Below, piece after piece: positions 5,741 through 38,370 of a DNA stretch of 45,758 nt. Position 1 is the stretch's first letter; each line of letters starts with the position of its first letter. This stretch comes from a bacterium (GTDB lineage: Bacteria; UBP18; UBA7526): the NCBI GenBank assembly GCA_030616365.1, contig JAUWXM010000002.1:1-45758 (forward strand), read 5' to 3'. The notes beneath the pieces were generated by a model. It was not told the DNA's origin and did not search any database. It saw nothing but the letters and a program-made list of their open reading frames with translations. The position numbers were made by a program, and so were the translations under genes.

Positions 5741-6043
5741 GTGGATATGAAAGCAGGCGGTTTATTAATTAAAGTTAAAGAAATAAAAGGTTTTTGTCCT
5801 GTCTATAAAGAAGGGGATTCGTTTATTATCCTTGAAGGTTACAAGCTGAAAACTGAAAAAGCAATTTGCATGCATTCTTTAACTGCAATTATGCCTTATT
5901 ATGTAGCCTTAAGCCGTGGAATTTTATCAAAAGAATTGGGATTAGCTAAGGAAGATGAAAATATTGCCTATGTACAGTGCCTTGATCCTTGCCATTACAC
6001 AAGTGGCGGAACCGTAATTTTTGAAATAGAAGTTAAAAAATGA
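5741..6043 (+). CDS. Small Cys-containing protein resembling the TIGR04076 family
   Basis: 100 aa with FCPVYKEGD, AICMHSL...PYYVAL and VQCLDPC...VIFEIE, which matches my recollection of the TIGR04076 pattern. The start is GTG 5741 or ATG 5747. The stop overlaps the wecB start (ATGA). Confidence 0.5.
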   Translation: MDMKAGGLLIKVKEIKGFCPVYKEGDSFIILEGYKLKTEKAICMHSLTAIMPYYVALSRGILSKELGLAKEDENIAYVQCLDPCHYTSGGTVIFEIEVKK

Positions 6044-8690: not shown

Positions 8691-8862
8691 TTTATAAACT
8701 TAATATATTCAGTTCGAAGACAAAGGCTGTAAAATCGAAAGTGGTTCAAAAGGGGCATTTAGAAAAACTGGTCAAATTTGGTAATTACCTGTGGTGAGAA
8801 ATCCGGCTCGCCTATGAAGACTATTTGATGAATATGGCATAAAACAGGAGAAGAAATTATAA

Positions 8863-10362: not shown

Positions 10363-11108
10363 TGGACGTAAAGACAAGAAAACTAAAGGGATCTGTGGAA
10401 AAGGCTTACACTGAATTTGCTAAAAGGTGTCAAAATTGGCCTAATAAATATGATATTATTCGGCAAACTGGCAAAATGCTCTCTGATTATGATCTTTTGT
10501 CAAGAGTAGATTTAGTGGGTAAAAAAATTCTAAACATTGGTTGTTCAGAACCAGATGACGAGGTGTATTTCGTTAACTTAGTGAAAGAATGGCATACTAT
10601 AGATATCAATGAGGCGATAGTCCGAACAGCAAGAAAATTAGCTGCTGAAGTGTTACCGCAGCATCTATACTCCAAGCTGAAATTCATTGTGGGTGACGCT
10701 ACTAAGCTCGATTTGAAAGATGGGTATTATGATGTGGTGGTTTCTTTTTCCACTATAGATCACATTCCGGGAAAAGAAAATAGGATGAAAGCGATAAACG
10801 AGATGTGTCGGGTGTTGAAGACGGGGGGATATTTAATTGTTACTGTTCCTAATAGATGGGATGTAATTTATTCTTATCGTTCTAATAAGTTACAAAGGGA
10901 AGGTAAGGCCATATTTGGCTATGAATATCAGTTTTCACCTCTGGAGCTAAAAAAGATGCTCACATCTAATGGGCTTAAAATGATTGATTGTGCGTCGACC
11001 GCCTTCAACCCTTATTCTTATTTTGATAGGATATTGAGGAAATTAAAACTTCATAAGATCAAGATTTATTTTGGAACAAGGTTTGGTTTTCTTGCTCAAA
11101 AGATTTGA
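10362..11108 (+). CDS. Class I SAM-dependent methyltransferase
   Basis: Motif I ILNIGCSEPDD, then VVVSFSTIDHI and LKTGGYLIVTVPN. The ATG at 10362 overlaps the flippase stop (TAATG) and is preferred over the GTG at 10338. Confidence 0.8.
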   Translation: MDVKTRKLKGSVEKAYTEFAKRCQNWPNKYDIIRQTGKMLSDYDLLSRVDLVGKKILNIGCSEPDDEVYFVNLVKEWHTIDINEAIVRTARKLAAEVLPQHLYSKLKFIVGDATKLDLKDGYYDVVVSFSTIDHIPGKENRMKAINEMCRVLKTGGYLIVTVPNRWDVIYSYRSNKLQREGKAIFGYEYQFSPLELKKMLTSNGLKMIDCASTAFNPYSYFDRILRKLKLHKIKIYFGTRFGFLAQKI

Positions 11109-11134
11109 GTCATTGTCGAACCGGAGGGAGTAGA

Positions 11135-13183: not shown

Positions 13184-13201
13184 AATTTTAGGTAGAAATT
13201 A

Positions 13202-14524
13202 ATGGTAACTATCAGAGCTGATTCAATAAAAAGAATCTTAATGATAACGGACACCTTTCCTCCCCACGTAGGAGGAGGTGGTACTATACGAATGGTAAAG
13301 TTTGCCAAATATTTTTCTCTTAAAAAATGGAAGGTTACGATTTTGACTACAACTGCTAAGAGAACAGCAGCCGGCGAAGATAAAGAACTGTTAAAAGAAA
13401 TTTCTTCTAATTATATCCAAATTCATAGAGTGGGAACAACGATTTTGAATTTTGGCGAAAGATTGAAGAATATTTTAGGGAAAAGAGGGGGAAAGCTAGA
13501 TATAAATAAGACTAAAAAAAGGAGAAATCTAATTGCTGCTTTATTGGCAATCCCAGATAGCTTAAATATCTGTATTTTAACAATGGTATGGGCTGGATTA
13601 AGATTGATTAGAAAAGAGAAAATCAATTTTATTATTGCCTCTTCTCCCAGTTTTTCGATTTTAGTAGTAGGTTATTTTTTAAAAATGATAAGTGGGAAAC
13701 ATTTCATTGTAGATATTCGTGACGATTGGGCGGGGAGCCCGGCACATTCTTATGATTTTAATTTCCGCAAGATAATAGATCTTTTTTTAGAGAGAAAAGT
13801 TATGAGATTAGCGGATATGATTATTGCCACTTCGACAGGGATAAAGAAGAGTTTGTTAGAAAAACATCCAATGATTCCTGGTGAAAAAATTAGAATAGTT
13901 TTTAATGGATTTGACCCGCAGGATTTTGAGATAAAAAGTTCAATAAATAAGAATTCAGAAAAATTCATAATATCTTATCTCGGGGTACTTAATTATGTGA
14001 AGACCCCTCAATATATTTTTGAGGGATTAAAGGAAGCTATTCAAAGAGAACCAGAGATTGGAAATTATATAAAGCTGCGTCTGGTTGGAAAGCGTCATTC
14101 CTGGGTAAAGAAATTAGTAAAGGAAGAAAATTTAGAGGATTTCGTTGAATTTACTGGATTTGTAAGTCATAAAAAGAGTATTCAATATATGCTTACCTCT
14201 GATATTTTGGTGCTCATCCTTTTTAAAGAAGAAGGTGGGGATACAGCTGTTCCTGGAAAATTATATGAATATTTAGCAGCAAGAAAGCCAATATTAGCAT
14301 GTGTGTGTGAGGGCGAAACAAGAAAATTTGTAATTCAACAAAGAGTAGGTAAAGTAACCTCCCCTAAAGGCATAGATAGTATCGTTAATGCTATTATTGA
14401 GTTTTACCAGGAGTGGAGAAAAGGGGAATTAAAAAAATATAGTATGTCATCTTCCTTATTAGGCCAATACAGTAGAGAAAAAGCAGTAATAGGATTAATT
14501 GATCTCCTGACTAAAATGGAATAA
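13202..14524 (+). CDS. Glycosyltransferase, GT4 (GT-B fold)
   Basis: N-terminal TDTFPPHVGGGG, and a C-terminal E-x7-E-like region (PGKLYEYLAARKPILA). 440 aa. Confidence 0.75.
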   Translation: MVTIRADSIKRILMITDTFPPHVGGGGTIRMVKFAKYFSLKKWKVTILTTTAKRTAAGEDKELLKEISSNYIQIHRVGTTILNFGERLKNILGKRGGKLDINKTKKRRNLIAALLAIPDSLNICILTMVWAGLRLIRKEKINFIIASSPSFSILVVGYFLKMISGKHFIVDIRDDWAGSPAHSYDFNFRKIIDLFLERKVMRLADMIIATSTGIKKSLLEKHPMIPGEKIRIVFNGFDPQDFEIKSSINKNSEKFIISYLGVLNYVKTPQYIFEGLKEAIQREPEIGNYIKLRLVGKRHSWVKKLVKEENLEDFVEFTGFVSHKKSIQYMLTSDILVLILFKEEGGDTAVPGKLYEYLAARKPILACVCEGETRKFVIQQRVGKVTSPKGIDSIVNAIIEFYQEWRKGELKKYSMSSSLLGQYSREKAVIGLIDLLTKME

Positions 14525-14708
14525 AGGTAATTACGAAATAAAAATATTAAATATAAAACAAGAGAGATAAGAAGTATTTACTCCCAAAACCTAGACTGAG
14601 CGGAAAAAGATGGTATAACGAAATTGCAATTTTCACCCCTAAAGCAGATAGAGTAAAATTTCAAAATAGAAGGAGGGTTAAAAAGTACCTTACACTGGAT
14701 TATTTATT

Positions 14709-14737
14709 TTTATGATATCTAGCCAAGATATCATAAA
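14709..14737. promoter_or_regulatory. Perfect 12-bp inverted repeat with a 5-bp spacer
   Basis: tttatgatatct-agcca-agatatcataaa, read directly. It lies in the 326-bp non-coding gap upstream of the GT2 gene. Confidence 0.6.
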
Positions 14738-14850
14738 TGAAAAAGGTTGGCAAAATAGATGTGTAGACAAAAAAGAAAATCAAGCGATAGTGGGATCTTT
14801 GCGGTATTTAGTTAAAGCTTTAGTGGGGGCTTTTTTTAAAGGAAGAAAAG

Positions 14851-15766
14851 ATGGAAATAAGTGTTGTTATACCAACAAAAGACAGACCCCTTGATCTTGA
14901 TCAATGCATCAATTCAATTTTGAGCCAAACATTCCCCCCTGAAGAAATTATTATTATCGATGATGGTGAGCTTTCAGAAAATTTTATAGAAAAAATTAAA
15001 AATAAAATAAAAGAAAAGGAAATTATATGTAAATATATCAGAAAGAAAATACCGGGGCTCTTGATATCTCGCAATCTCGGTGCTTCTAAATCGGAGAATT
15101 CCATTGTCTTATTTCTCGATGATGATGTAATATTGAACAAGGACTATATAGAAATATTAAAAAAATTGGGAAAAACATCAAAACGAGCAAAAAATTGGGG
15201 ATATCGGTGGTATTATTAAAAATTTACGTAAAATAAGTGGCTTAGAAAAATTTTATTATAAGTTATTCTTCTTATCTTCACCGATAAAATGGGATGTTAC
15301 AAACGTAGGCTTCCAGGTCTGGGATCCATCAATCAGAGAAAAAGAAAAAGTTTATTATCTTCCTGGTGGGATTGCATCTTTTAAAAAGAGTTTGATAGAA
15401 AAGCTACCCTTTAAACAGTTAAGCCCTGGGAGAACTCCTTCAGATGATATTGAATTTTTTCTACGAGCAAAAAAGGCCGGTTACTTCTTTTACCTCGATC
15501 CAAGAGCAAAGCTCTTCCATAAAATCTCTCTTATGGCGAGAGAAAATGAGTTTACCAAGGGGAGAAAGGAAGGTTTCGATCAATGTATTATTTTTAGGGA
15601 TAATGTTGAAAAAAATCTGAAAAACTATTTAAAATTTATTTGGTTGAGTATAGGTTGGATTTTGCGTCAATTTTTGTCTGGATATGTAAGAAAAGCCATG
15701 GGTCTAGTGGTTGGTTATATAAAGGTGGAAACTTTGGGTATAAAGGAAATTTCGAGGTTCAGATAA
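14851..15766 (+). pseudogene. GT2 glycosyltransferase interrupted by a frameshift at an A7 run
   Basis: The N-terminal ORF (ISVVIPTKDRP...IIIDDG...LFLDDDV) stops at 15219. The GT2 sequence continues in the +1 frame from 15161 (WEKHQNEQKIGDIGGIIKN...YYLPGGIASFKK...DDIEFFLRAKKAGY...H). The frames join at the A7 run at 15159-15165. Removing one A gives a single ORF of about 305 aa. Confidence 0.75.
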
Positions 15767-15767
15767 A

Positions 15768-17636
15768 ATGTGTGGTATATGTGGGATTTTGAACTTTGAA
15801 AGGAATGAATTAGTTGATGAGAATTTACTATATAAAATGACCAATGTTGTCCACCATCGGGGGCCGGATGATGAAGGATTTTATCTTGAGAGGAATATCG
15901 GCTTAGGAGTAAGGCGTCTGGCGGTTATCGATCTGGAGACCGGACATCAGCCGATACATAATGAGGATGAAACCATCTGGATTGTCTCCAATAGTGAGAT
16001 TTATAATTTCAAAGATTTGAGGAAAGATTTAGAAAAGAAAGGACACAGGTTCTACACTAAGAGTGATACAGAAGTAATTGTTCATCTTTATGAAGATTAT
16101 GGAACAGATTGTGTAGGATACTTGAGGGGAATGTTTGCTTTTGCCATCTGGGATGAAAGAAAAAGAGAATTGTTCCTGGCTCGGGATCGTTTAGGTCAGA
16201 AACCGTTAATTTATACTGTAGTCAATAATTCTTTAATCTTTGCTTCTGAGATAAAGTCCATTCTAATAAATCTAGAAGTTGAGAAAGAAGTCAACTTAGA
16301 AGCACTCCACCATTATCTGACCTACCAATATATTCCCGCTCCTCTAACTATGTTCTCCGGAATCAAAAAGCTTCCTCCAGCGAGTACCTTAATTTGTAAT
16401 GCAGATGGTGAAATAAAGATTGAACGCTACTGGAAGCTTAATTATAAAAATAAATTGGAGCTTTCTGAACCAGAATATTGTAAGAGAATTCTGGAGTTAC
16501 TTAGAGAAACGGTACAGTTAAGACTAATCAGTGATGTTCCTCTGGGAGCATTCTTATCTGGCGGTATTGATTCTTCGGCAATTGTAGGGATAATGAGCCA
16601 GTTGATGAATAAACCGGTGAAGACCTTCTCCATCGGTTTTGAGGAAGAGGACTTCTCTGAAATAAATTATGCCCGAACTGTAGCAGAATATTTTAAGACA
16701 GACCATCATGAGTTTATTGTTAAACCAAAGGCGATAGAAATCTTACCAAAACTTATCTGGCATTATAATGAGCCCTTTGCCGATTCTAGTGCTCTACCTA
16801 CTTATTATCTCGCCCGCGAGACGAGGAAGCATGTTACGGTAGCCCTGAATGGCGATGGTGGGGATGAAAACTTCGCTGGCTATGATAGATATCGAGCGAA
16901 TATGCTCGCTTCCTATTTTGATCGTATTCCCCAACCTTTAAAGAGGGTAGCAGTAGGTGTAGCAGAGAAATTTCCTGTTAGAAAAGCAAAGAAATTCTTC
17001 CAAGCAATAAATGAATCTCCCGAGAGGCGCAACATCCGCTGGCATTGCTTCTTTGACAATGAAAGAAAGGATAAACTTTATAGCGAAGAAATGAAAAAGA
17101 GACTATCTTATTTAGATACCTATGACTATATGATAAATGTATTCCGGGAAGCAAAAGCAGATGACTTTTTAGATAAGATTCTATATACAGACATCAACAC
17201 CTATCTTCCGGAAGATCTATTGGTTAAGATGGATATTGCCACCATGGCTAATTCCCTGGAGACCAGATCTCCCTTTTTGGATCATGAGCTTATAGAGTTT
17301 GTTGCTAGAATACCATCGAACTTGAAACTGAAAGGCCTGACCAGTAAGTATATCTTGAAAAAAGCTCTGAAAGACCTCTTACCTAAAGAAATCTTAAAGA
17401 GAGGAAAAATGGGCTTCGGGATACCAATAGGAAAGTGGTTCAGAAAAGAGTTAAGAGACTACCTGAAAGAGATTTTATTAGATGTCAAGAGTCTAAAGAG
17501 AGGATATTTTAGGAAAGAAACAATAGAGAAATTATTGACAGAGCATACTTCTGGCAGAGTGGACCATGGCTATCGGCTCTGGGCGCTCCTCAACCTGGAA
17601 TTGTGGCACCAGACATTTATAGATAAGAAGATATGA
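15768..17636 (+). CDS. asnB: Asparagine synthase (glutamine-hydrolysing) family amidotransferase
   Basis: N-terminal MCGI nucleophile, RGPDDEG, and the PP-loop SGGIDSS. 622 aa. Its position inside a glycan locus suggests a WbpS-type sugar amidotransferase role (inference). Confidence 0.88.
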   Translation: MCGICGILNFERNELVDENLLYKMTNVVHHRGPDDEGFYLERNIGLGVRRLAVIDLETGHQPIHNEDETIWIVSNSEIYNFKDLRKDLEKKGHRFYTKSDTEVIVHLYEDYGTDCVGYLRGMFAFAIWDERKRELFLARDRLGQKPLIYTVVNNSLIFASEIKSILINLEVEKEVNLEALHHYLTYQYIPAPLTMFSGIKKLPPASTLICNADGEIKIERYWKLNYKNKLELSEPEYCKRILELLRETVQLRLISDVPLGAFLSGGIDSSAIVGIMSQLMNKPVKTFSIGFEEEDFSEINYARTVAEYFKTDHHEFIVKPKAIEILPKLIWHYNEPFADSSALPTYYLARETRKHVTVALNGDGGDENFAGYDRYRANMLASYFDRIPQPLKRVAVGVAEKFPVRKAKKFFQAINESPERRNIRWHCFFDNERKDKLYSEEMKKRLSYLDTYDYMINVFREAKADDFLDKILYTDINTYLPEDLLVKMDIATMANSLETRSPFLDHELIEFVARIPSNLKLKGLTSKYILKKALKDLLPKEILKRGKMGFGIPIGKWFRKELRDYLKEILLDVKSLKRGYFRKETIEKLLTEHTSGRVDHGYRLWALLNLELWHQTFIDKKI

Positions 17637-18730
17637 AAAAAATCAATATCCTATATCTGATAATAGGCTTAGAAATTGGAGGGACAGAGATTCAACTTCT
17701 GGAACTCCTCAAAAAATTGGACAGAAAGAAGTATAACCCTATGGTTTGTTGTATGAAGAAGAGGGGAGTTTTAGCGGATGATATGGAGAAAATGGGCATT
17801 AAGATAGAGTCGTTAAACATCAGAAATAGATTTAATTTCTTAGCCCTTCCCAGGTTAGTAAAAATATTAAGGAGGGAAGGGATTGATATTCTTCATACCT
17901 TTCTCTTCCGGGCCAATATCTTGGGTCGCCTAACGGGCAGAATGGTCAGGGTGCCAATTGTCATCTCTAGTGAGGAATGCATTAAGCTAAAAAAGAAAAA
18001 AATATCTATCTTAATCGATAGGCTAACTTCGAGGTGGGCAGATAGGATTGTCGTCATTTCTGAAGCCATAAAGAATACCCTAACCAAAAGAGAAAAAATT
18101 AATCCGGAAAAGATTGAAGTTATCTATAATGGCATCGATCTAAGTAGCTTCAGGGTAGAAAATAAAAGAGAGAAAGATTCAATACCGAAGGTGGGAATAG
18201 TTGGTCGTCTTCATCCAGATAAAGGCCATCGCTATTTTCTAAAAGCAGCAGCCCAGACAATAAAGAAAGAACCAAAAGTAGAATTTCTCATTGTTGGCCA
18301 TGGACCGTTGAGGGGAGAACTAGAAGATTTGAGCAATGAATTAGCCCTATCTGATAAGGTTGTTTTCGTGGGAGGGCGTCGAGATATTCCTCAGATAATG
18401 TCTTCTCTGGATATTCTGGTTCTCTCTTCCCTAGAAGAAGGTCTGGGCAATGTTCTCTTGGAAGCTATGGCCTGTGGGAGACCAGTGGTGGCTACTAAGG
18501 TGGGAGGGGTGCCAGAAGCAGTCCTCGATGGTGAGACTGGCATTTTGGTTTCCCCCAAGAATCCAGATGCCCTGGCCCAGGCGACCCTTAAGTTATTGAT
18601 GAACCGAGCCCTGGCCAAGGGTATGGGTCAGGCAGGAAGGAGAAGGGTAGAGAAATATTTTAGTATAGATAGAATGGTAAAAGAAACAGAAAAGGTGTAT
18701 AATAATCTCATTCAGGAGAAACTGTTTTGA
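17633..18730 (+). CDS. Glycosyltransferase, GT4
   Basis: IGLEIGGTE at the N-terminus and EEGLGNVLLEAMACGRPVVATKVGGVPE at the C-terminus. The start overlaps the asnB stop (ATGA). Confidence 0.85.
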   Translation: MKKINILYLIIGLEIGGTEIQLLELLKKLDRKKYNPMVCCMKKRGVLADDMEKMGIKIESLNIRNRFNFLALPRLVKILRREGIDILHTFLFRANILGRLTGRMVRVPIVISSEECIKLKKKKISILIDRLTSRWADRIVVISEAIKNTLTKREKINPEKIEVIYNGIDLSSFRVENKREKDSIPKVGIVGRLHPDKGHRYFLKAAAQTIKKEPKVEFLIVGHGPLRGELEDLSNELALSDKVVFVGGRRDIPQIMSSLDILVLSSLEEGLGNVLLEAMACGRPVVATKVGGVPEAVLDGETGILVSPKNPDALAQATLKLLMNRALAKGMGQAGRRRVEKYFSIDRMVKETEKVYNNLIQEKLF

Positions 18731-18741
18731 AAGGATCCTTA

Positions 18742-19812
18742 ATGAATTTCAGTTTAATATTAGCTTTACTATTAATAGGTTGCCAGGCTCAAGAGAAAAT
18801 TCGATTTCCTGAAAACATAAAAATCATTGATTTTCAAAACGGTGAGATAATAAAAGGTAACCATCATTTTGTTTATGAGGACTATAAACAACCGCAGCTT
18901 AGAATACTAAGAGAACAGGAAAAGTTAGACCAAGCAGTTAAAAAAGCAAAAACGGAATTTGAGAAGTTTATCCTTCTTCGCAATTGGGTAAAATCCCAAT
19001 GGGTACATAGTATTCCCCAACCCTATCCTCCTTGGAATGCTTTAATTATTCTTGATTGGATAAGGAAGGGTAAGACTGGAGGGTTTTGCGCCCAATATGC
19101 TGTAGTCTATGTTCAGGCCTGCCTATCCCTAGGATTACAGGCACGTTATATTGATATTAACTGTAAAGGAGGAACGGGACATTTCTTAACTGAAATATGG
19201 TCTAACGACTATAATAAATGGGTAGTTATGGATCCCGATTTTAATATCCATTACGAAAGAAATGGTACTCCCTTAAACGCCTTAGAATTACATAATGCCT
19301 GGGTAAATAATAACTGGCAAGATATAGAAATAATCCAAGGTTACCCACCATCCAAGATTCATCGTATCGATGATTATAAATATAACCTCATTGATTACTA
19401 CTATGATATCAGTATTGACTTAAGAAATAATCATCTTTCCCAACCAAATAATTTTTGGGATAGAAAGCATGGCTATCTAAGCTGGAGAGATGAATATACT
19501 CAAGGTCGTTCAACAAGCTACACCAAATTTTCTAATCGAAAACAAGATTTTTATTGGCCATTAAATCAAACCGTGATCAAGTTAACTAAAACAAGCGAGC
19601 CAGATTTATCGAAAGTAGATCTTGAAACAGTTACTCCTAACTTTGAAACTTTTTTAACTAAAATTAATCATTCTCAATGGTCCAAAACGAATCCACCCTT
19701 CTTTTGGAAGTTAAAGAAAGGTTCTAATATTCTGGAGGCGAAAAGTAAGAATAAATTTGGAATATCAGGGCCAACAAGTTACATTATTATTGATTACATA
19801 GGAAGTGATTAA
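18742..19812 (+). CDS. Transglutaminase-like (Cys-His-Asp papain-fold) lipoprotein
   Basis: The ATG at 18742 follows AGGA. Signal peptide plus lipobox MNFSLILALLLIGC. The candidate catalytic triad is GGFCAQYA ... GHFLTEIW ... VMDPD. Confidence 0.6.
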   Translation: MNFSLILALLLIGCQAQEKIRFPENIKIIDFQNGEIIKGNHHFVYEDYKQPQLRILREQEKLDQAVKKAKTEFEKFILLRNWVKSQWVHSIPQPYPPWNALIILDWIRKGKTGGFCAQYAVVYVQACLSLGLQARYIDINCKGGTGHFLTEIWSNDYNKWVVMDPDFNIHYERNGTPLNALELHNAWVNNNWQDIEIIQGYPPSKIHRIDDYKYNLIDYYYDISIDLRNNHLSQPNNFWDRKHGYLSWRDEYTQGRSTSYTKFSNRKQDFYWPLNQTVIKLTKTSEPDLSKVDLETVTPNFETFLTKINHSQWSKTNPPFFWKLKKGSNILEAKSKNKFGISGPTSYIIIDYIGSD

Positions 19813-19813
19813 A

Positions 19814-20839
19814 ATGTCAAAGTATTATTTTATTGCCTTTTTATCTTCTCTTATCTTAGCCTTTCTATTGACTCCTCTGGTCAGGAGGATGGCCTTTAGA
19901 TTTGATATTCTGGATCATCCCCGGGCACCGGTAAAGGTTCATAAGGAACCGGTTCCCTACCTGGGAGGAGTAGCCATTTTCCTCGCCTTTCTGATTCCGG
20001 TAATAGCCGGATTCTTTCTTCTCAACATTCCGGAAGAAGGGAAGCCGCAACTGCTGGGCATTCTTTTAGGGGGGACGATAATCATTGCCTTGGGCTTAGC
20101 CGATGATCTGCAGGGCCTCTCCGCCAGGACGAAACTCTTCGTAGAAAGCCTGGCAGCCATAGTTTTAATTATGTTTGGTGTAAGGCTTAAGTTCCTACCC
20201 TTCTGGCCCAGCATTCCTCTAACTATACTCTGGGTAGTGGGAATCATCAATGCCTTCAATATTATCGATATTATGGATGGTCTATCGAGCGGGGTGGTCT
20301 TCATTGCCTCTTTAGCCTTAATTGCTATCGCCCTACCTGGTAATCAGGTCTTTGTTATCTTAGCCTGCGTTGCCCTGGCTGGTGCTTCTTTAGGATTCTT
20401 AAGATATAATTTCTTTCCGGCAAAGATCTATATGGGGGATGCGGGAAGCCTATTCTTAGGATTTACCATGGCTGCCCTGGCTATCGGGACGAGTTATACC
20501 GCAGTAAATAGAATTGCCCTCTTCGCCCCCATCCTCATTTTAGGGATCCCCATCTACGATGCCTTCCTGGTCACCACCTTACGAACAAAGAAAGGTCGAT
20601 CTATCTTGCGGGCGAGCAATGACCACTTTGCTCTTCGCTTGGTGGCCTTTGGATTAAGTCGGAAGAAGACAGTCCTGATTGTCTATCTAATAAGTATCTT
20701 GTTAGCCATCGCCGGAATAATTGTCACTCTGGTAGAAATTAAATGGGCTATTTTTATCTATTGCTTAGTTATCTTAATCTCCTTTTTAGTTGGCCATCGA
20801 TTGGCTCAAATTGAGATGAGAGAAGAGATCCATGGTTGA
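19814..20839 (+). CDS. Undecaprenyl-phosphate HexNAc-1-phosphate transferase (MraY/WecA family)
   Basis: About 10 transmembrane helices, with ALGLADDL, NAFNIIDIMDGL, FFPAKIYMGDAGSLFLGF and NDHFALRL. ATG at 19814 (TAAAATG). Confidence 0.85.
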   Translation: MSKYYFIAFLSSLILAFLLTPLVRRMAFRFDILDHPRAPVKVHKEPVPYLGGVAIFLAFLIPVIAGFFLLNIPEEGKPQLLGILLGGTIIIALGLADDLQGLSARTKLFVESLAAIVLIMFGVRLKFLPFWPSIPLTILWVVGIINAFNIIDIMDGLSSGVVFIASLALIAIALPGNQVFVILACVALAGASLGFLRYNFFPAKIYMGDAGSLFLGFTMAALAIGTSYTAVNRIALFAPILILGIPIYDAFLVTTLRTKKGRSILRASNDHFALRLVAFGLSRKKTVLIVYLISILLAIAGIIVTLVEIKWAIFIYCLVILISFLVGHRLAQIEMREEIHG

Positions 20840-22139
20840 GGTAATTATCTTAGGTGCCGGGCTTTCTGGCTTAACTTGCGCCTATTATTTAAGAAAAGAT
20901 TATTCCATATTTGAGAAAGAATCGAAAGTGGGAGGATTGTGCCGTTCAGAGAGAATAGACGGCTTTACTTTTGACTATACTGGGCACTTACTCCATCTTA
21001 AAAAAGACGAGAATAAAAGACTGGTCAGGAAACTTTTAGGGAAAAATCTCTTTCTTCAGAAGCGAAAAGCCTGGATTTATTCTAAGGGAATCTATACCAA
21101 GTATCCCTTTCAGGCCAACATCTATGGATTACCCGAAGAGGTTATAAAGGAGTGTATCAGTGGCCTCCGAGAAGCTAGGACTAACCGTAAACGGTACACC
21201 GTAAACCGTAAACCCGTTGATTTCAAAGAGTGGATCTATAGAAACTTTGGAAGGGGCTATGCTAAGCACTTCATGATTCCCTATAACGAGAAGTTATGGA
21301 CCGTTCCCTTAGAAGAGATGTCCACAGAGTGGACCAAGAGGTTTATCCCCATTCCTACATTGAAGGAGGCATTAGCTGGGGCAAGGGGAAGGCAGGAGAA
21401 GGACTTTGGTTATAATATCCGATTCTATTATCCCTTAAAGGGGGGGATAGAAAAACTGCCCAAATCCTTCCTCTCACATATTAAGAGAGTGAATTTAAAA
21501 ACAGAAGCGACCAGAATCTTGTTTAAAGATAAAAAGATTAAATTAAGTAATGGCAGAGAGATAAGATACCAAAAATTGGTGTCTACCATTCCTTTACCAG
21601 AACTGATAAGAATTATTGACCGAGTTCCAGGAGAGGTTAGTAAGGCTTCTAAGCGTTTAAGATATATTTCAGTCTTTAATCTAAATCTGGGAATTGAGCG
21701 AGAAAATATATCAGATAAGCACTGGCTTTACTTTCCAGAAAAAGAATTCGCTTTCTATCGGGTGGGCTTTACCTCCAACTTTTCTCCCTATCTCGCCCCT
21801 AAAGGAACGAGTTCTATCTATACCGAAGTCTCCTATTCTAAAGATAGACCTCTTGATAAGAAGAAAATAGTAAAGAAGGTAACCGAGGATTTAATAAAGG
21901 CAGGCATTATTACTTCCCGGGATAGAATTCTGGCAAAACTTGCCTTAGATATCAAATATGCCTATCCTCTCTATGATCATGACTACAGAGAGAGTGTGGC
22001 TATCGTTCAAAGATTTTTAAGAAAGAATAATATCTATTCCCTAGGAAGGTTTGGCTCCTGGGAGTATCTCTCCATGGAAGATGTCATTAATCAAGGTAGA
22101 GAAACAGCCCAACTAATCAGTAAGCAAGTAGGAAAGTAG
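20832..22139 (+). CDS. FAD-dependent oxidoreductase (amine oxidase / HemY / UDP-galactopyranose-mutase-like fold)
   Basis: N-terminal dinucleotide fold VIILGAGLSGLTCAYYL...FEKESKVGG, and C-terminal GRFGSWEY. The specific function cannot be resolved by eye. Confidence 0.6.
   Translation: MVEVIILGAGLSGLTCAYYLRKDYSIFEKESKVGGLCRSERIDGFTFDYTGHLLHLKKDENKRLVRKLLGKNLFLQKRKAWIYSKGIYTKYPFQANIYGLPEEVIKECISGLREARTNRKRYTVNRKPVDFKEWIYRNFGRGYAKHFMIPYNEKLWTVPLEEMSTEWTKRFIPIPTLKEALAGARGRQEKDFGYNIRFYYPLKGGIEKLPKSFLSHIKRVNLKTEATRILFKDKKIKLSNGREIRYQKLVSTIPLPELIRIIDRVPGEVSKASKRLRYISVFNLNLGIERENISDKHWLYFPEKEFAFYRVGFTSNFSPYLAPKGTSSIYTEVSYSKDRPLDKKKIVKKVTEDLIKAGIITSRDRILAKLALDIKYAYPLYDHDYRESVAIVQRFLRKNNIYSLGRFGSWEYLSMEDVINQGRETAQLISKQVGK
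21184..21218 (+). repeat. Five tandem heptamers inside the oxidoreductase CDS
   Basis: The units read directly as accgtaa acggtac accgtaa accgtaa acccgtt. They encode TNRKRYTVNRKPV. Confidence 0.8.
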
Positions 22140-22158
22140 GAAAGTAAAAAAGTAAAAA
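22119..22158 (+). repeat. Five tandem octamers of AGTA-NNN-A type
   Basis: The units read directly as agtaagca agtaggaa agtaggaa agtaaaaa agtaaaaa. The array covers the last codons and stop of the oxidoreductase and runs into the RBS region of the next gene. Confidence 0.8.
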
Positions 22159-22169
22159 GAGGTTAGATT

Positions 22170-23114
22170 ATGAAGGTTTTAGTAACGGGAGTGGCGGGGT
22201 TCATCGGTTCCCACTTAGCAGAAGGATTATTAAAATTAGGATGGGAAGTAAAGGGGATCGATTCTTTTACTGACTATTATTCTCGCAAGATTAAAGAGAA
22301 TAATCTAAAAAACCTTAAAGAGAATAAAAATTTCTCTTTTGTAGAAGGCGATCTCTTAGAAATAGACCTGAAGAAAATCTTGGAAGGGGTTGCTTATCTC
22401 TTCCATGAAGCCGCCCAACCGGGAGTAAGAGAAAGCTGGGGGAAGCGTTTTGGGCTCTATATCCAAAATAATATTACGGTAACGCAAAGACTATTGGAAG
22501 AAACAAAGAAATTTCCCTTGAAGAAATTCATCTTAGCTTCCTCTTCCTCCGTTTATGGAGAGAGCCCCTTACCTACGAGGGAGGATAATATTTTAAAACC
22601 CGTATCCCCTTACGGAGTTACCAAATTGGCCTCGGAAAATCTGGGCTACCTTTACTATAAGTCTTTTGAAGTGCCGGTGATTGCTTTACGCTACTTCACA
22701 TTATATGGTCCGAGGCAGAGACCGGATATGGCCTTCCACAAATTCATTAAGGCCTTATTGAACGATGAAGAGATTACTATCTATGGGGATGGGAATCAGA
22801 CCCGGGACTTTACCTATATCGCTGATACTGTAGAGGCGACCATAAAGGCAGCCCAAAGTAAAGTAGCTGGAGAGATAATAAATATCGGGGGAGGAGCACA
22901 AGTCACCGTAAATGAAACCTTAAGAATATTGGAAGAGATTACCAGAAAGAAAGCAAGGATAAGATATATCGAGAAGCAAAAGGGAGATGTGCTACATACC
23001 TTTGCCGATATATCAAAGGCGAAGAGATTATTGAACTATCAGCCCAAGGTAAAGTTAAGAGAAGGTCTGGAGAAAGAAGTAGCCTGGCTTGCAACCGCCA
23101 AAGCGCAAAAGTAA
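22170..23114 (+). CDS. NAD-dependent nucleotide-sugar epimerase/dehydratase (extended SDR)
   Basis: VTGVAGFIGSHL, SSSSVYG and the catalytic YGVTK. 314 aa. It resembles UDP-glucuronate or UDP-hexose 4-epimerases. Confidence 0.85.
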   Translation: MKVLVTGVAGFIGSHLAEGLLKLGWEVKGIDSFTDYYSRKIKENNLKNLKENKNFSFVEGDLLEIDLKKILEGVAYLFHEAAQPGVRESWGKRFGLYIQNNITVTQRLLEETKKFPLKKFILASSSSVYGESPLPTREDNILKPVSPYGVTKLASENLGYLYYKSFEVPVIALRYFTLYGPRQRPDMAFHKFIKALLNDEEITIYGDGNQTRDFTYIADTVEATIKAAQSKVAGEIINIGGGAQVTVNETLRILEEITRKKARIRYIEKQKGDVLHTFADISKAKRLLNYQPKVKLREGLEKEVAWLATAKAQK

Positions 23115-23136
23115 AAGTAAAAACGCAGAGAATATT

Positions 23137-24306
23137 ATGAGAAAGTTAAATGTTCTGCATGCCATTACTAAGTTGGAACTGGGTGGAGCGCAGGAGAATA
23201 CCCTCTATACTCTTCAGAACCTAAATCGGGAGAGATATAACCTTTTCTTAGCCGCCAATGATGAGGGAATTCTAATAAAGAAGGCGAGAGAATTAAAGGA
23301 TGCAAAAGCATTCTTTATTTCAGAGCTCATACGCCCCCTCAATCCCTTGAAGGATTTAATTGCTTTGATTAAACTAGTTCACTTTTGTAAAAGAGAAAAA
23401 ATAGACATCATCCATACTCATTCCTCAAAGGCCGGGATCCTGGGGAGGTGGGCAGCCCGGTTAGCCAGGGTACCGATCATTACTCATACCATTCATGGCT
23501 GGGGCTTCTATCCCAAGCAGAATCTCTTGAAGAAGAAACTCTTCATTCTCCTGGAGAAGATAACAGCTAAAATTACGGATAGATTGGTTGCTGTCTCCCG
23601 AGCAAATATTGAGACTGGGATAGAGAATAGAATTGGAAGGAAAGAAAAGTATACTCTTATCCGAAGTGGAATAAAACCATCCCGATTCCAGAATATGGAA
23701 GTGGATATTGGGGAAAAAAGGAAGGGGTTGAGTCTTGAGGAGGATACTAAAGTAGTGGCCATGATCGCCCCCCTCAAGCCCCAGAAGGCCCCTCTGGACT
23801 TTGTTAAAGTGGCCAATCAAGTAATAAAGAAGAAGCCCAAAACTCAATTCCTTTTAATCGGGGATGGGGAATTGAGGCCAGAGATTGAAGAGTTAATAAA
23901 GGAACTCAATTTAGAGAAGAAGGTAATCCTCACTGGCTGGAGAAGAGATATTCCCCAGATTTTAAGAATTGCAGATATCTTAGTCTTAACCTCTCGCTGG
24001 GAGGGCCTTCCCCGAGTCTTTCCCGAAGCCATGGCGAGTGAGTTGCCCATCGTTGCTACTAAAGTAGATGGCGCCCCAGAGGCCATAGAAGAAGGAATAA
24101 ATGGATTCTTAGTCTCTGTGGGAGAGATCAGGGGCATGGCAGAGAAGATAATCACTCTGTTAGATAATCCCGAAATGGCAAAGGAGATGGGAAGGAGGGG
24201 AAAGGAGAGGGCCTTCCCAGAGTTTGATATCGATTTAATGGTTAAAAAGATCGATGATCTCTATCAAGAACTAATTAGGAGTAAAAGACTTAGATGCAAA
24301 GATTAG
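23137..24306 (+). CDS. Glycosyltransferase, GT4
   Basis: LELGGAQEN at the N-terminus and WEGLPRVFPEAMASELPIVATKVDGAPE at the C-terminus. The ATG at 23137 is preferred over the TTG at 23089, which would overlap the epimerase. Confidence 0.85.
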   Translation: MRKLNVLHAITKLELGGAQENTLYTLQNLNRERYNLFLAANDEGILIKKARELKDAKAFFISELIRPLNPLKDLIALIKLVHFCKREKIDIIHTHSSKAGILGRWAARLARVPIITHTIHGWGFYPKQNLLKKKLFILLEKITAKITDRLVAVSRANIETGIENRIGRKEKYTLIRSGIKPSRFQNMEVDIGEKRKGLSLEEDTKVVAMIAPLKPQKAPLDFVKVANQVIKKKPKTQFLLIGDGELRPEIEELIKELNLEKKVILTGWRRDIPQILRIADILVLTSRWEGLPRVFPEAMASELPIVATKVDGAPEAIEEGINGFLVSVGEIRGMAEKIITLLDNPEMAKEMGRRGKERAFPEFDIDLMVKKIDDLYQELIRSKRLRCKD

Positions 24307-31349: not shown

Positions 31350-31411
31350 CCCCGCACCTTTTTCTTGAAAAAATCGTTTAACTTATTTTAGTGACACTTA
31401 AAGGTGCGGGG

Positions 31412-31440
31412 TTGACTTTTTTTGCCTATTGAAGTATAAT
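31412..31440 (+). promoter_or_regulatory. Near-consensus sigma70 promoter upstream of tRNA-Gly
   Basis: TTGACT (31412-31417), a 17-nt spacer, then TATAAT (31435-31440). It lies about 68 nt upstream of the mature tRNA 5' end. Confidence 0.6.
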
Positions 31441-31508
31441 ATTTTATTGGGCGGACGTGATTCCCTGTCCCGCCTTTGGCGGGAAATGGCACCCCGCACC
31501 TTTGTAAT

Positions 31509-32197: not shown

Positions 32198-32287
32198 GTA
32201 AAAAGTAAGAAGTAACAATAATCATTTTAAATTTTTCATTTTGCATTTTGAATTTCAATAAGGCCTGCCCCGCACCATTATCAATAG

Positions 32288-32361
32288 CTCCCCGTAGCTC
32301 AGCTGGACAGAGCGTCCCCCTCCTAAGGGGAAGGTCGAGTGTTCGAATCACTCCGGGGAGG
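32288..32361 (+). tRNA. tRNA-Arg (anticodon CCU), no encoded CCA
   Basis: Manual cloverleaf. Acceptor CTCCCCG/CGGGGAG (C1-G72). TA, then D arm GCTC-AGCTGGACA-GAGC. Anticodon arm TCCCC-CTCCTAA-GGGGA. Variable loop AGGTC. T arm GAGTG-TTCGAAT-CACTC. Discriminator G. Confidence 0.9.
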
Positions 32362-32485
32362 CGGAATGAGATATGGTGCGGGGCCCAGCACCAGAGCAAA
32401 GCTCGGTGCTGGACTAGTCCCGCACCGAAACAAAGTTTCTGGTGCGGGGTAAAAATCCGTCCGGGGGCGCCAGAAGGAAATATAA

Positions 32486-34705: not shown

Positions 34706-35566
34706 CTAAAAAAGGCCCTTGGAGGCGATTTTTGAGGCTTCTTCGAGGCTTTTCAGGCTTCCCACCTCATGCCAGAACTCCCCTGTCAGGTATCCGAAGA
34801 GGGGATCTCCCTTCTTAAGCATCTGGAGGTATACCCTTTCCAGACCGTAGAATTTATTAGGCGGGATATACTGCAAGACCCTTGGCTCTAAAATAACGAT
34901 CCCAGTATGGGCCGCTTTAGTCGCTGGTTCTTCGCTTTTATATTTGTTTAAAAACTGGCAGACCCTTCCCTGATCATCTAACCCAATGACTCCATACCTC
35001 CGAGGATTCTTAGTTTTCTTTAAGATCATAGTGGCTAAAGACTTCTTATTTTTATGGAAAGCAAGGGCTTTTTTAATATCTATAGTGGTTAAAGAGTCGC
35101 AGGCAGTAACCAAGAAGGTTTTCTTTAACTCCTTCTCTTTCTTCTTTAAGGCCCCAGCGGTACCCAGAATATTCTTCTCGTAGGAATAAGTAATCTTTAG
35201 ACCAAACTCCCCTCTCCTAAGATATCCCCTTCGGGGATACTTCCATAGGGGTTTCACCCCTCTGGCGGTCGGCAAAGGCATGCCTTGCCTCCCTGTCACC
35301 CTCCTGGGGGGAAGCAGATTCTTTCCCCCAGACCCCCTAATCCGCGTGGGAATTTTAACAAATTCCGATGCGCTGAGATATCTCTTAATCATATCTGGCA
35401 TATAATGAAGATTGATAATGACCTCTTTTATTCCTTGATTAGCCAACCACTCTAAGACATAGTCTATGACTGGTCGGCCCTTAACTTCGATTAATGGTTT
35501 TGGTTTCTTAAATGTTAAAGGCCGCAGTCTGGTTCCCAGTCCCGCGGCCAGTATAAAGGCTTTCAT
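34706..35566 (-). CDS. Sugar-1-phosphate nucleotidyltransferase carrying a 52-aa in-frame insertion
   Basis: N-terminal AAGLGTRLRPLT..KPKPL, then ...INLHYMP...YL, then after the insert GLKITYSYEKNILGTAGAL. Residues 70-121 are an R/G/P-rich segment encoded by GC-rich hairpin DNA. Confidence 0.8.
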   Translation of the reverse strand: MKAFILAAGLGTRLRPLTFKKPKPLIEVKGRPVIDYVLEWLANQGIKEVIINLHYMPDMIKRYLSASEFVKIPTRIRGSGGKNLLPPRRVTGRQGMPLPTARGVKPLWKYPRRGYLRRGEFGLKITYSYEKNILGTAGALKKKEKELKKTFLVTACDSLTTIDIKKALAFHKNKKSLATMILKKTKNPRRYGVIGLDDQGRVCQFLNKYKSEEPATKAAHTGIVILEPRVLQYIPPNKFYGLERVYLQMLKKGDPLFGYLTGEFWHEVGSLKSLEEASKIASKGLF

Positions 35567-38118: not shown

Positions 38119-38370
38119 CTTGCTTCCCTACTCTATTTTATTGGGCAAAATACTAAATTCTAATATCGAAACTCTAAACAATATCTAAATTCAAAATTCA
38201 AATGACCAAAACAGTTTTGGATTTAGAACATTCGGATTTTGGACATTTGATATTGTTTCGGTCAATGCTTAATTATTTATGCTCTCTCCAATGCCAGCGA
38301 AGCGCATTGGGTTTTCGGATTTTCCCGCCTCTGGCGGGACCCCGTCGTATGGCGGTGGCGTGCTTCGGAT

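What the first reader, a model, noticed from the sequence alone, without database searches (positions are those of the whole stretch)
35204..35365. 156-nt GC-rich multi-hairpin element inserted in frame in a nucleotidyltransferase gene
What the sequence shows:
- Residues 70-121 of the 34706-35566 (-) protein read VKIPTRIRGSGGKNLLPPRRVTGRQGMPLPTARGVKPLWKYPRRGYLRRGEF.
- This segment splits what is normally a contiguous NTP_transferase stretch (...YL..SEF | GLKITYSYE..LGTAGAL).
- The coding DNA is visibly more G+C-rich than its flanks.
- It is a string of hairpins: tatcccc-ttc-ggggata (35223-35239), agggg-tttca-cccct (35247-35261), the near-palindrome ggcaaaggca/tgccttgcc (35271-35289), and tgggggg..ccccca (35305-35330).
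- It is bounded by GAATTT (35360-35365) and GAGTTT (35204-35209), encoding SEF and GEF, which looks like a target-site duplication.
- It shares CCTCTGGCGG (35259-35268) with an intergenic GC-rich module at 38328-38337.

Interpretation (inference): a miniature palindromic element has colonised a CDS without breaking the frame. Rickettsia palindromic elements behave this way. Alternatively, the segment may be removed or act at the RNA level.
Basis: partly seen in the sequence, partly recalled or inferred. Interest (0 to 1): 0.7.

Follow-up and report, generated by a model that had tools for sequence, protein, structure and literature searches.

The report
Site-specific hairpin element inside an enzyme gene
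A 153-base, hairpin-rich piece of mobile DNA from a previously undescribed family sits in frame inside a sugar-nucleotide enzyme gene of an uncultured sediment bacterium, where it is probably tolerated as a floppy surface loop and is better conserved than the gene around it.

Summary
The insert is exactly 153 nt (window 35220-35372, residues 66-116), not 156. It splits a 286-aa NTP-transferase between helix 2 and strand 3. At least 15 close orthologue clusters (235 aa) lack it and four carry it.

It is the G+C-richest 80-nt stretch of the window and folds into five hairpins. The real flanking repeat is GATATCT(Y)AG. The 10-mer shared with 38328 is at chance level.

The segment belongs to a dispersed family, found so far at eight loci:
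- All copies have the same orientation relative to neighbouring genes.
- They have no terminal inverted repeats.
- They sit just 3' of a host site that mimics the element's own 3' end (GATATCTTG).
- A second locus (DegT 3' end) also has filled and empty alleles.

At both loci the element is about 96% identical between lineages whose flanking genes are 84-90% identical. Filled alleles are scattered in the host gene tree.

Best reading: a non-autonomous, site-specific mobile element that is translated as a disordered loop. Its end architecture resembles the single-strand (HUH, IS91/IS200-like) transposons. No transposase was found.

The parts
34706..35566 (-). Host gene: NDP-sugar pyrophosphorylase (NTP_transferase), 286 aa including the insert; orthologues without it are 235 aa
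   Evidence: PDB relatives align to residues 1-65 and 120-280. dN/dS among filled alleles is 0.10-0.19.
35220..35372 (-). The inserted element, 153 nt = codons 66-116 (ASEF...RRGYL). Boundary ambiguity is 1 nt (35219-35371 is equally possible).
   Evidence: DNA alignment of 4 filled and 4 empty alleles. Family members elsewhere. pLDDT is below 50 for residues 68-116.
35344..35371 (-). Hairpin H5, at the 5' end of the element in gene sense (GCATCGGAATTT/AAATTCCCACGC). Family consensus is a perfect GCATCGGAATT/AATTCCGATGC stem.
   Evidence: (I1). Four pairs in this helix show changes on both sides.
35304..35331 (-). Hairpin H4 (CTGGGGGAAAG-AATCTG-CTTCCCCCCAG), flanked by invariant single-stranded GGATTAGGGGGT and GGGTGACAG
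   Evidence: (I2)
35271..35289 (-). Hairpin H3, the hypervariable central hairpin. Family members have unrelated sequences here, most of which fold as a clear hairpin.
35243..35265 (-). Hairpin H2 (CCAGAGGGGTGAAACCCCTATGG)
   Evidence: I3; the loop-closing pair covaries UA/CG
35219..35243 (-). Hairpin H1 plus tail at the element's 3' end (AAGTATCCCC-GAA-GGGGATATCTT). It is invariant in all copies, partly because it was the search pattern.
   Evidence: (I7)
35373..35382 (-). Host target copy GATATCTCAG (GATATCTTAG in empty alleles), immediately 5' of the insert in gene sense. It encodes part of R-Y-L-S.
   Evidence: Across 8 loci the 5' flank matches GATATCTTG at 48 of 72 positions, against 19.1 +/- 3.8 at random.
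35217..35226 (-). Second copy of the 10-nt direct repeat: the element's last 7 nt (GATATCT) plus host TAG
   Evidence: (D1, I5)

Best explanation
SHOWN:
- The 153-nt segment is one copy of a dispersed family. Members are about 140-160 nt, with one 213-nt variant.
- They are G+C-rich and have five hairpins.
- Both ends are conserved. The central hairpin is hypervariable.
- There are no terminal inverted repeats.
- Each copy lies in the same orientation as its neighbouring genes.
- Each lies directly 3' of a host sequence that resembles the element's own 3' end (GATATCTTG). The fullest target (in L013) is the palindrome CAAGATATCTTG.
- At two loci, the NTP-transferase gene and the DegT 3' end, both filled and empty alleles exist.
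- In the window the element landed in the loop between helix 2 and strand 3 of the NTP-transferase.
- The frame stays open and the host gene stays under purifying selection.

INFERRED:
- The element is translated as a 51-residue disordered surface loop and tolerated there. It is not removed.
- It is a non-autonomous mobile element, moved in trans by a site-specific enzyme encoded elsewhere.
- Its anatomy is closest to the ends of single-strand (HUH) transposons of the IS91 / IS200-IS605 type. The shared features are: no target duplication; a short target motif (...CTTG) abutting one end; the other end finishing in the same motif just after a subterminal hairpin; and hairpins at both ends.
- A mini-IS91 of 89 + 82 bp of ends is known to transpose in trans (PMC13181058).
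- The scattered distribution of filled alleles, with differences clustered next to the junctions, suggests spread between related lineages by short-tract gene conversion or by repeated site-specific insertion.
For: Lineage-specific insert:
- Four filled alleles come from four independent assemblies (window, L001, L005, L006). At least 15 empty orthologue clusters exist.

Family:
- One metagenome scan with the terminal hairpin found full-length relatives in seven other contexts. An nhmmer profile re-detects these copies and finds no further copy in any locus.
- All 8 contexts have the same orientation relative to genes.

Target:
- The 5' flanks, which were not part of the search pattern, match GATATCTTG at 48 of 72 positions, against 19.1 +/- 3.8 at random (0 of 20,000 trials).
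- Empty sites at two loci show that this copy is host sequence.
- The DegT site is occupied by two element subtypes at the same nucleotide.

No TSD or TIR:
- In diverged copies the left flank differs from the invariant right end at 4-8 of 9 positions.
- The two ends share no inverted repeat.

Structure:
- 97.7% of cells are paired. Seven pairs have changes on both sides, against 2.3 +/- 1.0 in shuffles and at most 2 in slid controls.

Conservation:
- The insert is 96-97% identical among filled alleles, against 84-90% for the host gene. It has 0 synonymous and 4-6 non-synonymous differences, while host dS is 0.30-0.72.
- At the DegT locus the element is 96.4% identical, against 86-87% for the flanking genes.

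Tolerated loop:
- pLDDT is above 90 for the fold and below 50 for residues 68-116. PDB alignments skip residues 66-119.

Patchy distribution:
- Each filled allele's nearest relative is an empty one.
- L001 and L002 are 99% identical, and 4 of their 7 differences lie within 6 nt of the junctions. L005 and L024 show 5 differences within 15 nt on the left side.

IS91-type rules are taken from PMC13181058.
Against: - No transposase of any kind is present in the window or in about 190 kb of related loci.
- There is only one copy per locus, so copy number per genome is unknown. The genome-wide scan used a 23-mer that overlaps the variable hairpin.
- Target mimicry extends over about 9 nt, not the 4 nt typical of IS91.
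- In the NTP-transferase the junction lies after TTAG(T), not after CTTG. It fits a clean 'CTTG|' rule only with a 3-nt irregularity.
- The ends show no sequence similarity to anything in PLSDB plasmids or phage records.
- Orthologous copies are better conserved than neighbouring genes. This is not expected of a dead passenger. It points to some selected function or to continuing conversion.
- Translation of the insert is inferred, not observed.
Confidence: 0.6

Rival explanations
1. The element is mainly a functional structured RNA, either a cis-acting mRNA module or a small RNA gene. It is transcribed with its host operon and selected for that function. Mobility only explains how it is dispersed. 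The copy inside the enzyme gene is then either an accident or a regulatory module inside an mRNA.
For: - Joining regions are invariant while helices vary and covary, and one hairpin is hypervariable. This is the pattern of functional RNAs.
- One copy (L017) has hairpin-shaped expansions rather than random indels.
- All 8 contexts are co-oriented with transcription.
- The gene-sense strand folds more stably than the antisense in 10 of 11 copies.
- Orthologous copies are 4-5 times less diverged than the flanking genes at two loci.
- Four of eight contexts are polysaccharide-biosynthesis operons.
Against: - No Rfam family matches, even at a permissive threshold.
- There is no promoter- or terminator-like signal.
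- Neighbouring genes are functionally mixed: TyrRS, a tRNA cluster, DUF58, Memo/AMMECR1.
- The distance to the next start codon ranges from 1 to about 120 nt.
- G-U versus A-C counts do not discriminate between the strands.
- Hairpins bound as single-stranded DNA would give the same covariation.
Confidence: 0.3
2. The element is a module serviced by an RNA-guided or conservative site-specific recombinase or nuclease. Possible models are IS110-family bridge-RNA recombination or TnpB/IscB-type homing. It would integrate by recombination between its end-to-end junction and a look-alike palindromic target. Alternatively it would be copied into empty alleles after targeted cleavage.
For: - The fullest target (in L013) is a palindrome (CAAGATATCTTG), and targets at the other loci closely resemble the element's end. 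ISPpu9 and its non-autonomous ssr9 module show the same feature (PMC12288879).
- The same nucleotide position is reused by two subtypes.
- Filled alleles are scattered in the host tree, with short co-conversion-like tracts.
- The element is about the size of a guide or bridge RNA and is highly structured.
Against: - No DEDD, TnpB or IscB gene occurs in any locus.
- The HEARO / IS605-orfB RNA families of Rfam do not match.
- A crossover within GATATCT predicts junctions that fit the DegT locus but miss the NTP-transferase junctions by 3-4 nt.
- No internal segment is obviously complementary to the target, apart from the palindromic end itself.
Confidence: 0.15
3. It is a classical MITE: a DDE-transposase substrate with terminal inverted repeats that duplicates its target on insertion. 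The GATATCTTG repeat would be a 9-10-bp target-site duplication at a symmetric hot spot.
For: - In L013 the element is flanked by an identical 9-nt direct repeat. In the window the flanking repeat is 10 nt with 9 matching.
- Symmetric target consensus sequences are known for DDE elements such as Tn10 (from background knowledge).
Against: - There are no terminal inverted repeats.
- The right-hand copy forms part of the conserved terminal hairpin. In four of the eight contexts the left copy matches it at only 1-6 of 9 positions, although the elements themselves are 75-91% identical.
- The window junction is 3 nt short of what any TSD model predicts.
- The orientation bias of 8 out of 8 is unexplained.
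Confidence: 0.08
4. The segment is removed after transcription or translation (intron-like or intein-like), so the enzyme is unaffected.
For: - It interrupts a conserved enzyme in four lineages without loss of selection on the host gene.
- Its boundaries can be brought together by an 8-bp helix between the 5' flank AGAUAUCU and the 3' end GGAUAUCU (I5; this pairing is my inference).
Against: - At 51 aa it is far below intein size, and the junction residues typical of inteins (Cys/Ser at the insert's first position, Cys/Ser/Thr just after it) are absent (Ala66, Arg117).
- At 153 nt it is below group I/II intron size, and no Rfam intron or ribozyme matches.
- The coding-region copies differ from intergenic relatives by the small length changes that keep the frame open: no TGA triplet, one extra loop base and one extra C. 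This suggests the insert is read through.
- Most family members are intergenic.
Confidence: 0.04
5. It is an ordinary lineage-specific protein loop that evolved as coding sequence.
For: It lies in a surface loop and is in frame.
Against: - Related DNA occurs in non-coding contexts.
- Within the insert there are no synonymous and 4-6 non-synonymous differences per pair, while host dS is 0.3-0.7.
- A search of 1.84 billion representative proteins with the peptide found nothing real.
- Filled alleles are scattered in the gene tree.
Confidence: 0.01

Closest known systems
Rickettsia palindromic elements (RPEs) and other MITEs that create in-frame fusions
   Same: - About 150-nt palindromic repeat inserted in frame in a metabolic gene.
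- The host protein apparently stays functional, and the insert lies at a surface position (review PMC10969869).
   Different: - The host is an uncultured cold-seep or sediment bacterium, not Rickettsia.
- Only 1 of 8 known insertion loci is in frame inside a gene, and one more overlaps a gene's 3' end. In Rickettsia conorii 44 copies were reported, nearly half of them in ORFs.
- Insertion is site-specific next to ATATCTTG.
- All copies share one orientation.
- The encoded peptide is not conserved as a peptide (all differences are non-synonymous).
- Sequence comparison with RPE families was not done.
IS91-family (HUH Y2, rolling-circle) ends and mini-IS91 derivatives
   Same: - No target duplication.
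- A target motif (5'-CTTG for IS91) abuts one end.
- The other end finishes with a similar tetranucleotide right after a subterminal imperfect palindrome.
- Palindromes are present at both ends.
- About 170 bp of ends suffice for transposition in trans (PMC13181058).
   Different: - Target mimicry extends over about 9 nt.
- The window junction is not at CTTG.
- The ends have no detectable similarity to IS91-family ends present in plasmid records.
- No HUH transposase was seen.
IS200/IS605-derived palindrome-associated elements (PATEs) and REP/RAYT repeats
   Same: - Small, hairpin-ended, with no inverted repeats and no duplication.
- Insertion is strand-specific, 3' of a short motif.
- Precise excision would explain clean empty sites (from background knowledge of the family).
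   Different: - The hairpins sit 2-5 nt from the ends, not 10-20 nt.
- There are five different hairpins rather than a REP doublet, and no GTAG/CGTC tag.
- No TnpA or RAYT gene was seen.
ssr9 module of ISPpu9 (IS110 family) in Pseudomonas putida
   Same: A short non-autonomous module that encodes a structured RNA. It is moved by a transposase supplied in trans into a palindromic target that resembles the element's own end (PMC12288879).
   Different: - There is no sequence relation.
- No IS110-type recombinase was found.
- The junctions fit a simple core crossover at only one of the two loci.

Membership tests
Rickettsia palindromic elements (RPE) | Palindromic repeat of about 100-150 bp inserted in frame in ORFs | tested here: met
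   153 nt, five hairpins, in frame, 51 codons
Rickettsia palindromic elements (RPE) | Sequence homology to the defined RPE families | not tested
   No RPE consensus library was available. Rfam has no match.
Rickettsia palindromic elements (RPE) | Many copies per genome, a large share of them inside ORFs | tested here: not met
   One copy per locus in about 190 kb. One of 8 contexts is in frame inside a gene and one clips a gene's 3' end. No other protein carries the peptide.
Classical MITE (DDE-mobilised) | Terminal inverted repeats | tested here: not met
   The ends GCATCGGAATT... and ...GGGGATATCTTG share no inverted repeat.
Classical MITE (DDE-mobilised) | Target-site duplication of fixed length | tested here: not met
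   The right copy is part of the conserved terminal hairpin. The left copies diverge from it (1-9 of 9 matches). The window junction is 3 nt off any TSD model.
IS91-type (HUH Y2) mini element | No TSD; target tetranucleotide (CTTG/GTTC) abutting one end | tested here: inconclusive
   Met at the DegT locus (ATATCTTG|) and in 4-5 other flanks. In the window the junction follows TTAG(T) or TCGG(T).
IS91-type (HUH Y2) mini element | Subterminal palindromes at both ends, with the far end closing in a tetranucleotide like the target | tested here: met
   H5 lies 0-2 nt from one end. H1 is followed by TCTTG at the other.
IS91-type (HUH Y2) mini element | A cognate HUH transposase in the same genome, flanked by the same ends | not testable with these tools
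None was found in the fetched loci.
IS110-dependent module | Target resembles the element end or junction; short core shared by donor and target | tested here: inconclusive
   The resemblance is strong. A core crossover fits the DegT junctions but not the window junctions.
Intein | Size of at least about 130 aa, with the nucleophilic junction residues typical of inteins (Cys/Ser first, Cys/Ser/Thr just after) | tested here: not met
   51 aa. The first insert residue is Ala and the residue after the insert is Arg.
Group I/II intron or known ribozyme or other RNA family | Match to a curated covariance model | tested here: not met
   Rfam 15 gave only the two tRNAs at gathering score and nothing meaningful at E<=10.

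The most novel reading that the evidence does not exclude
The element is a free-standing, structured guide-like or recognition module that "homes". Transcribed with its host operon, it recruits a nuclease or recombinase encoded elsewhere to ATATCTTG sites and is copied into empty alleles. This would explain four features together:
- it is better conserved than the genes around it;
- it always points the same way;
- two subtypes reuse exactly the same nucleotide position;
- it appears in scattered lineages, with only a few co-converted flanking bases.
Probability: 0.15. Interest if true: 0.85.

Novelty: new variant of a known kind. Interest (0 to 1): 0.55.

Why it matters
In-frame colonisation of genes by palindromic elements is well documented mainly in Rickettsia. 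This case comes from uncultured marine-sediment bacteria, and both filled and empty alleles are available at two loci. The insertion can therefore be reconstructed base by base.

The family is unusual for a small bacterial repeat in four ways:
- it is site-specific for a sequence that mimics its own end;
- it is strictly oriented;
- it has no inverted repeats or duplications;
- it is several-fold better conserved than the neighbouring protein-coding genes.

If the mobilising enzyme can be found, the system would give a compact (about 150-nt) substrate for a sequence-specific insertion mechanism. It would also give a natural experiment on how much unstructured peptide a Rossmann-like enzyme tolerates in a loop.

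Tried and rejected
- BLASTN (word size 7) and an nhmmer family profile found no second copy in the window or within any of the fetched loci.
- The genome-contig scan with a 23-mer returned only the L001 contig. In hindsight the 23-mer overlapped the variable hairpin, so this says little about copy number.
- Two viral-contig scans were empty. Plasmid and phage BLAST searches were empty.
- The word-indexed protein search with the 51-aa peptide found no candidate. The exhaustive representative search gave only four low-identity, repetitive hits.
- The first AlphaFold run, with 16 sequences, was unusable (pLDDT 37). The second, with 72 sequences, was good.
- The early idea that the antisense (+) strand is the structured one was dropped. 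It holds for the window copy only; 10 of 11 copies fold better in gene sense.
- Splicing was rejected as the origin of the empty L002 contig because the flanking SNPs differ.
- Deletion between the direct repeats was rejected as the origin of empty alleles. It would leave a 234-aa protein lacking the second TAG, whereas all empty alleles encode 235 aa.
- The taxonomy of CSMAG_2758 was not found in the cold-seep catalogue supplement. Shared genes between the window and other loci are too distant to relate the hosts.
Full report
**1. What is there**

- ORF 34706-35566 on the minus strand encodes a 286-aa protein. Pfam NTP_transferase matches it in two separate stretches.
- Residues 66-116 are encoded by a stretch that is 57% G+C in a 41.8% G+C window. 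Its 66% peak is the highest 80-nt value anywhere in the 45.8 kb.
There is also a fifth, at 35344-35371.
- No tRNA or Rfam family covers the region, even at E<=10.

**2. Exact limits**

- A protein search returned three further 286-aa proteins and at least 15 clusters of 235-aa orthologues at 68-75% overall identity. Outside the insert the identity is up to 91%.
- I fetched DNA for four filled alleles: the window, L001 (GCA_030619985.1, a cold-seep MAG), L005 (GCA_009619115.1) and L006 (a JGI metagenome).
- I also fetched four distinct empty alleles: L002, L003 (L004 is an identical second contig), L024 and L025. All lie in the same gene neighbourhood.
- The alignment shows a clean 153-nt insertion, window 35220-35372:
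  - empty: AGAGATATCTTAG|TAGGAGAGG
  - filled: AGAGATATCTCAG[CGCATCGG...GGGGATATCT]TAGGAGAGG
That "duplication" is therefore not real.
- The real repeat is GATATCT-YAG. One copy is host. The other is the element's last 7 nt plus host TAG.
- The 10-mer shared with 38328-38337 is at chance level.

**3. It belongs to a dispersed family**

- One scan of JGI metagenome contigs with the terminal hairpin (21 nt) returned ten loci.
- Seven of them carry a full-length relative, 75-91% identical, in unrelated contexts:
  - between a methyltransferase and a GT4 gene (L011);
  - arginase-like to Memo/AMMECR1 (L015);
  - DegT aminotransferase to epimerase (L013);
  - upstream of DUF58 (L014);
  - upstream of a GT2 gene (L008);
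  - upstream of TyrRS (L012);
  - inside a tRNA cluster, 1-2 nt from the 5' end of a tRNA (L017).
  - Supporting calls for these contexts: 34, 35, 58, 60, 90, 91.
- In all eight contexts the element points the same way relative to the flanking genes.
- No locus holds a second copy.
- Nothing similar exists in the viral, plasmid or phage collections.

**4. Anatomy of the family** (gene-sense strand)

- Order of parts: hairpin H5 (GCATCGGAATT/AATTCCGATGC); invariant GGATTAGGGGGT; H4; invariant GGGTGACAG; H3; CGCCAGA; H2; TATGGAAG; H1 (TATCCCC-GAA-GGGGATA); tail TCTTG.
- H3 is hypervariable. Family members have unrelated sequences there, and most of them fold as a clear hairpin.
- L017 has extra hairpin-shaped expansions.
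- Excluding H3, 97.7% of cells are paired.
- Seven pairs show changes on both sides, against 2.3 +/- 1.0 in column shuffles (0 of 500) and at most 2 in slid controls.
- The two ends share no inverted repeat.
- The gene-sense strand folds more stably than its complement in 10 of 11 copies. The window copy is the exception.
- G-U versus A-C counts do not settle which strand matters.

**5. Target**

- The nine bases upstream of the element were not part of my search pattern. Across eight loci they match GATATCTTG, the element's own 3' end, at 48 of 72 positions. Random 9-mers from the same loci give 19.1 +/- 3.8 (0 of 20,000 trials).
- Empty alleles at two loci prove that this copy is host sequence.
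- The second such locus came from a search with the DegT protein of L013. Some orthologues end ...ILRHRNY*, which is read from the element. Others end ...ILEKVKR*.
- The DNA shows:
  - empty: CAAAATATCTTG|GAAAAGGTCAAGAGATGA
  - filled: CAAGATATCTTG[AGGCATCGG...GGGGATATCTTG]GAAGAGGTCAAGAGATGA
- So the element lies directly 3' of ATATCTTG and ends in the same bases. The fullest target is the palindrome CAAGATATCTTG.
- The same nucleotide position is occupied by two subtypes of the element. L013 and L018 have one H3 type. L020 and L021 have the window type.
- In four of the eight contexts the left flank matches the invariant right end at only 1-6 of 9 positions. The repeat is therefore not a target-site duplication. 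It is target mimicry of the element's end.

**6. Evolutionary behaviour**

- Among the four filled NTP-transferase alleles the host gene is 84-90% identical (dS 0.30-0.72, dN/dS 0.10-0.19). The insert is 96-97% identical.
- Every pair has 4-6 differences in the insert. All are non-synonymous and none is synonymous.
- The same holds at the DegT locus. Between L013 and L018 (a MAG named Candidatus Scalindua sp.) the element is 96.4% identical and the flanking genes 86-87%.
- In a neighbour-joining tree of the host protein the four filled alleles are scattered. Each has an empty allele as its nearest relative.
- L001 and L002 are 99.0% identical outside the insert. Four of their seven differences lie within 6 nt of the junctions.
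- L005 and L024 show five differences within 15 nt of the left junction. L006 and L025 have identical flanks.
- Empty alleles cannot derive from filled ones by deletion between the direct repeats. That would remove one TAG and give 234 aa, whereas all empties have 235 aa.
- L002 is not a spliced copy of L001, because its flanking SNPs differ.
- The pattern needs one of three things: repeated site-specific gain, precise loss, or short-tract gene conversion between lineages. It also points to a constraint on the element's nucleotide sequence that is unrelated to the peptide it encodes.

**7. Effect on the protein**

- PDB relatives (GDP-mannose and UDP-glucose pyrophosphorylases) align to residues 1-65 and from 120 on.
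- With a 72-sequence alignment AlphaFold2 gives mean pLDDT 83. The host fold is above 90. Residues 68-116 are below 50 with no secondary structure, between helix 57-66 and strand 124-129. A first run with 16 sequences was unusable.
- The coding-region copies differ from their intergenic relatives by the small length changes that keep the frame open.
- I infer that the insert is translated as a disordered loop. This has not been observed.

**8. Mechanism**

- The shown anatomy is:
  - no inverted repeats and no duplication;
  - hairpins at both ends;
  - insertion 3' of a short motif that the far end repeats just after a subterminal hairpin;
  - strict orientation;
  - conserved ends around a hypervariable middle.
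- This anatomy is closest to single-strand HUH transposons. For the IS91 family the literature reports the following (PMC13181058):
  - no TSD;
  - a target 5'-CTTG or GTTC next to oriIS;
  - a subterminal palindrome next to a similar tetranucleotide at terIS;
  - transposition in trans of a derivative carrying 89 + 82 bp of ends.
- I therefore rank "non-autonomous derivative of an HUH-type element" first.
- An IS110-type module is the main mechanistic rival. In ISPpu9 the target palindrome resembles the IS end, and a small-RNA module (ssr9) is mobilised in trans (PMC12288879).
- Weaknesses:
  - No transposase gene occurs in the window or in any fetched locus.
  - The mimicry spans about 9 nt rather than 4.
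  - The window junction follows TTAG(T), not CTTG.
  - The excess conservation suggests either an RNA-level or DNA-level function, or ongoing conversion.
- There are no promoter-like or terminator-like signals in the element.

**9. Comparison and novelty**

- In-frame insertion of about 150-nt palindromic repeats is the hallmark of Rickettsia palindromic elements. It is occasionally seen with other MITEs (PMC10969869).
- I would not file it as an RPE or a classical MITE. It lacks inverted repeats, duplications and high copy density. It is site-specific and oriented. Its peptide is not conserved as a peptide.
- No curated RNA family or public plasmid or phage record matches.
- I rate it a new variant of a known kind, of moderate interest. 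It would rank higher if the guide-like or homing reading (probability about 0.15) proved true.

Noticed in passing
window 31350-31500 and 32268-32449 (also L001, L003, L015, L017): A second short repeat, CCCCGCACC / GGTGCGGGG, occurs 6 times in the window (0.07 expected). The copies form inverted pairs that bracket the tRNA-Gly and tRNA-Arg genes. The same 9-mer occurs in the syntenic loci, next to the element in L015, and as a replacement hairpin inside the L017 copy of the element. It looks like a REP-like palindrome of this lineage and hints that the L015 and L017 hosts are related to the window's host.
   Followed up: partly
window 38119-38370: The NDK-aldolase spacer is 252 nt here, against about 115 nt in L001 and L003, and cannot be aligned with them. 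It contains G+C-rich hairpins (CCCGCC-TCT-GGCGGG, CCAATGC...GCATTGG). It is unrelated to the element under study.
   Followed up: partly
window 14851-15766: A family-2 glycosyltransferase gene appears truncated or frameshifted. ORF 14851-15219 (122 aa) matches only the first 99 of 168 profile positions. A 124-aa ORF at 15392-15766 follows, with no family match. This could be a pseudogene or an assembly error.
   Followed up: partly
L020 and L021 (contig ends), L013: Two independent contigs from different assemblies end inside the element at the DegT locus, as expected if assemblers break at a repeat present more than once in the community or genome. In filled DegT alleles the element replaces the last five residues (..ILEKVKR to ..ILRHRNY) and separates an overlapping stop/start (ATGA) from the downstream epimerase gene.
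   Followed up: partly
L016 3968-3988 and L010 300-320: Two orthologous coding contigs contain the exact 21-nt terminal hairpin (CAGATATCCCCTTCGGGGATA) but nothing else of the element. This is either a chance match or a solo hairpin.
   Followed up: no
window 6040-24306: A large polysaccharide-biosynthesis cluster. It includes a UDP-GlcNAc 2-epimerase, a B12-radical SAM enzyme, a flippase, a heparinase II/III-like protein, several GT4/GT2 glycosyltransferases, an asparagine synthase-like protein and a GDP-mannose dehydratase-like epimerase. Four of the eight insertion contexts of the element family lie in or next to genes of this kind.
   Followed up: no
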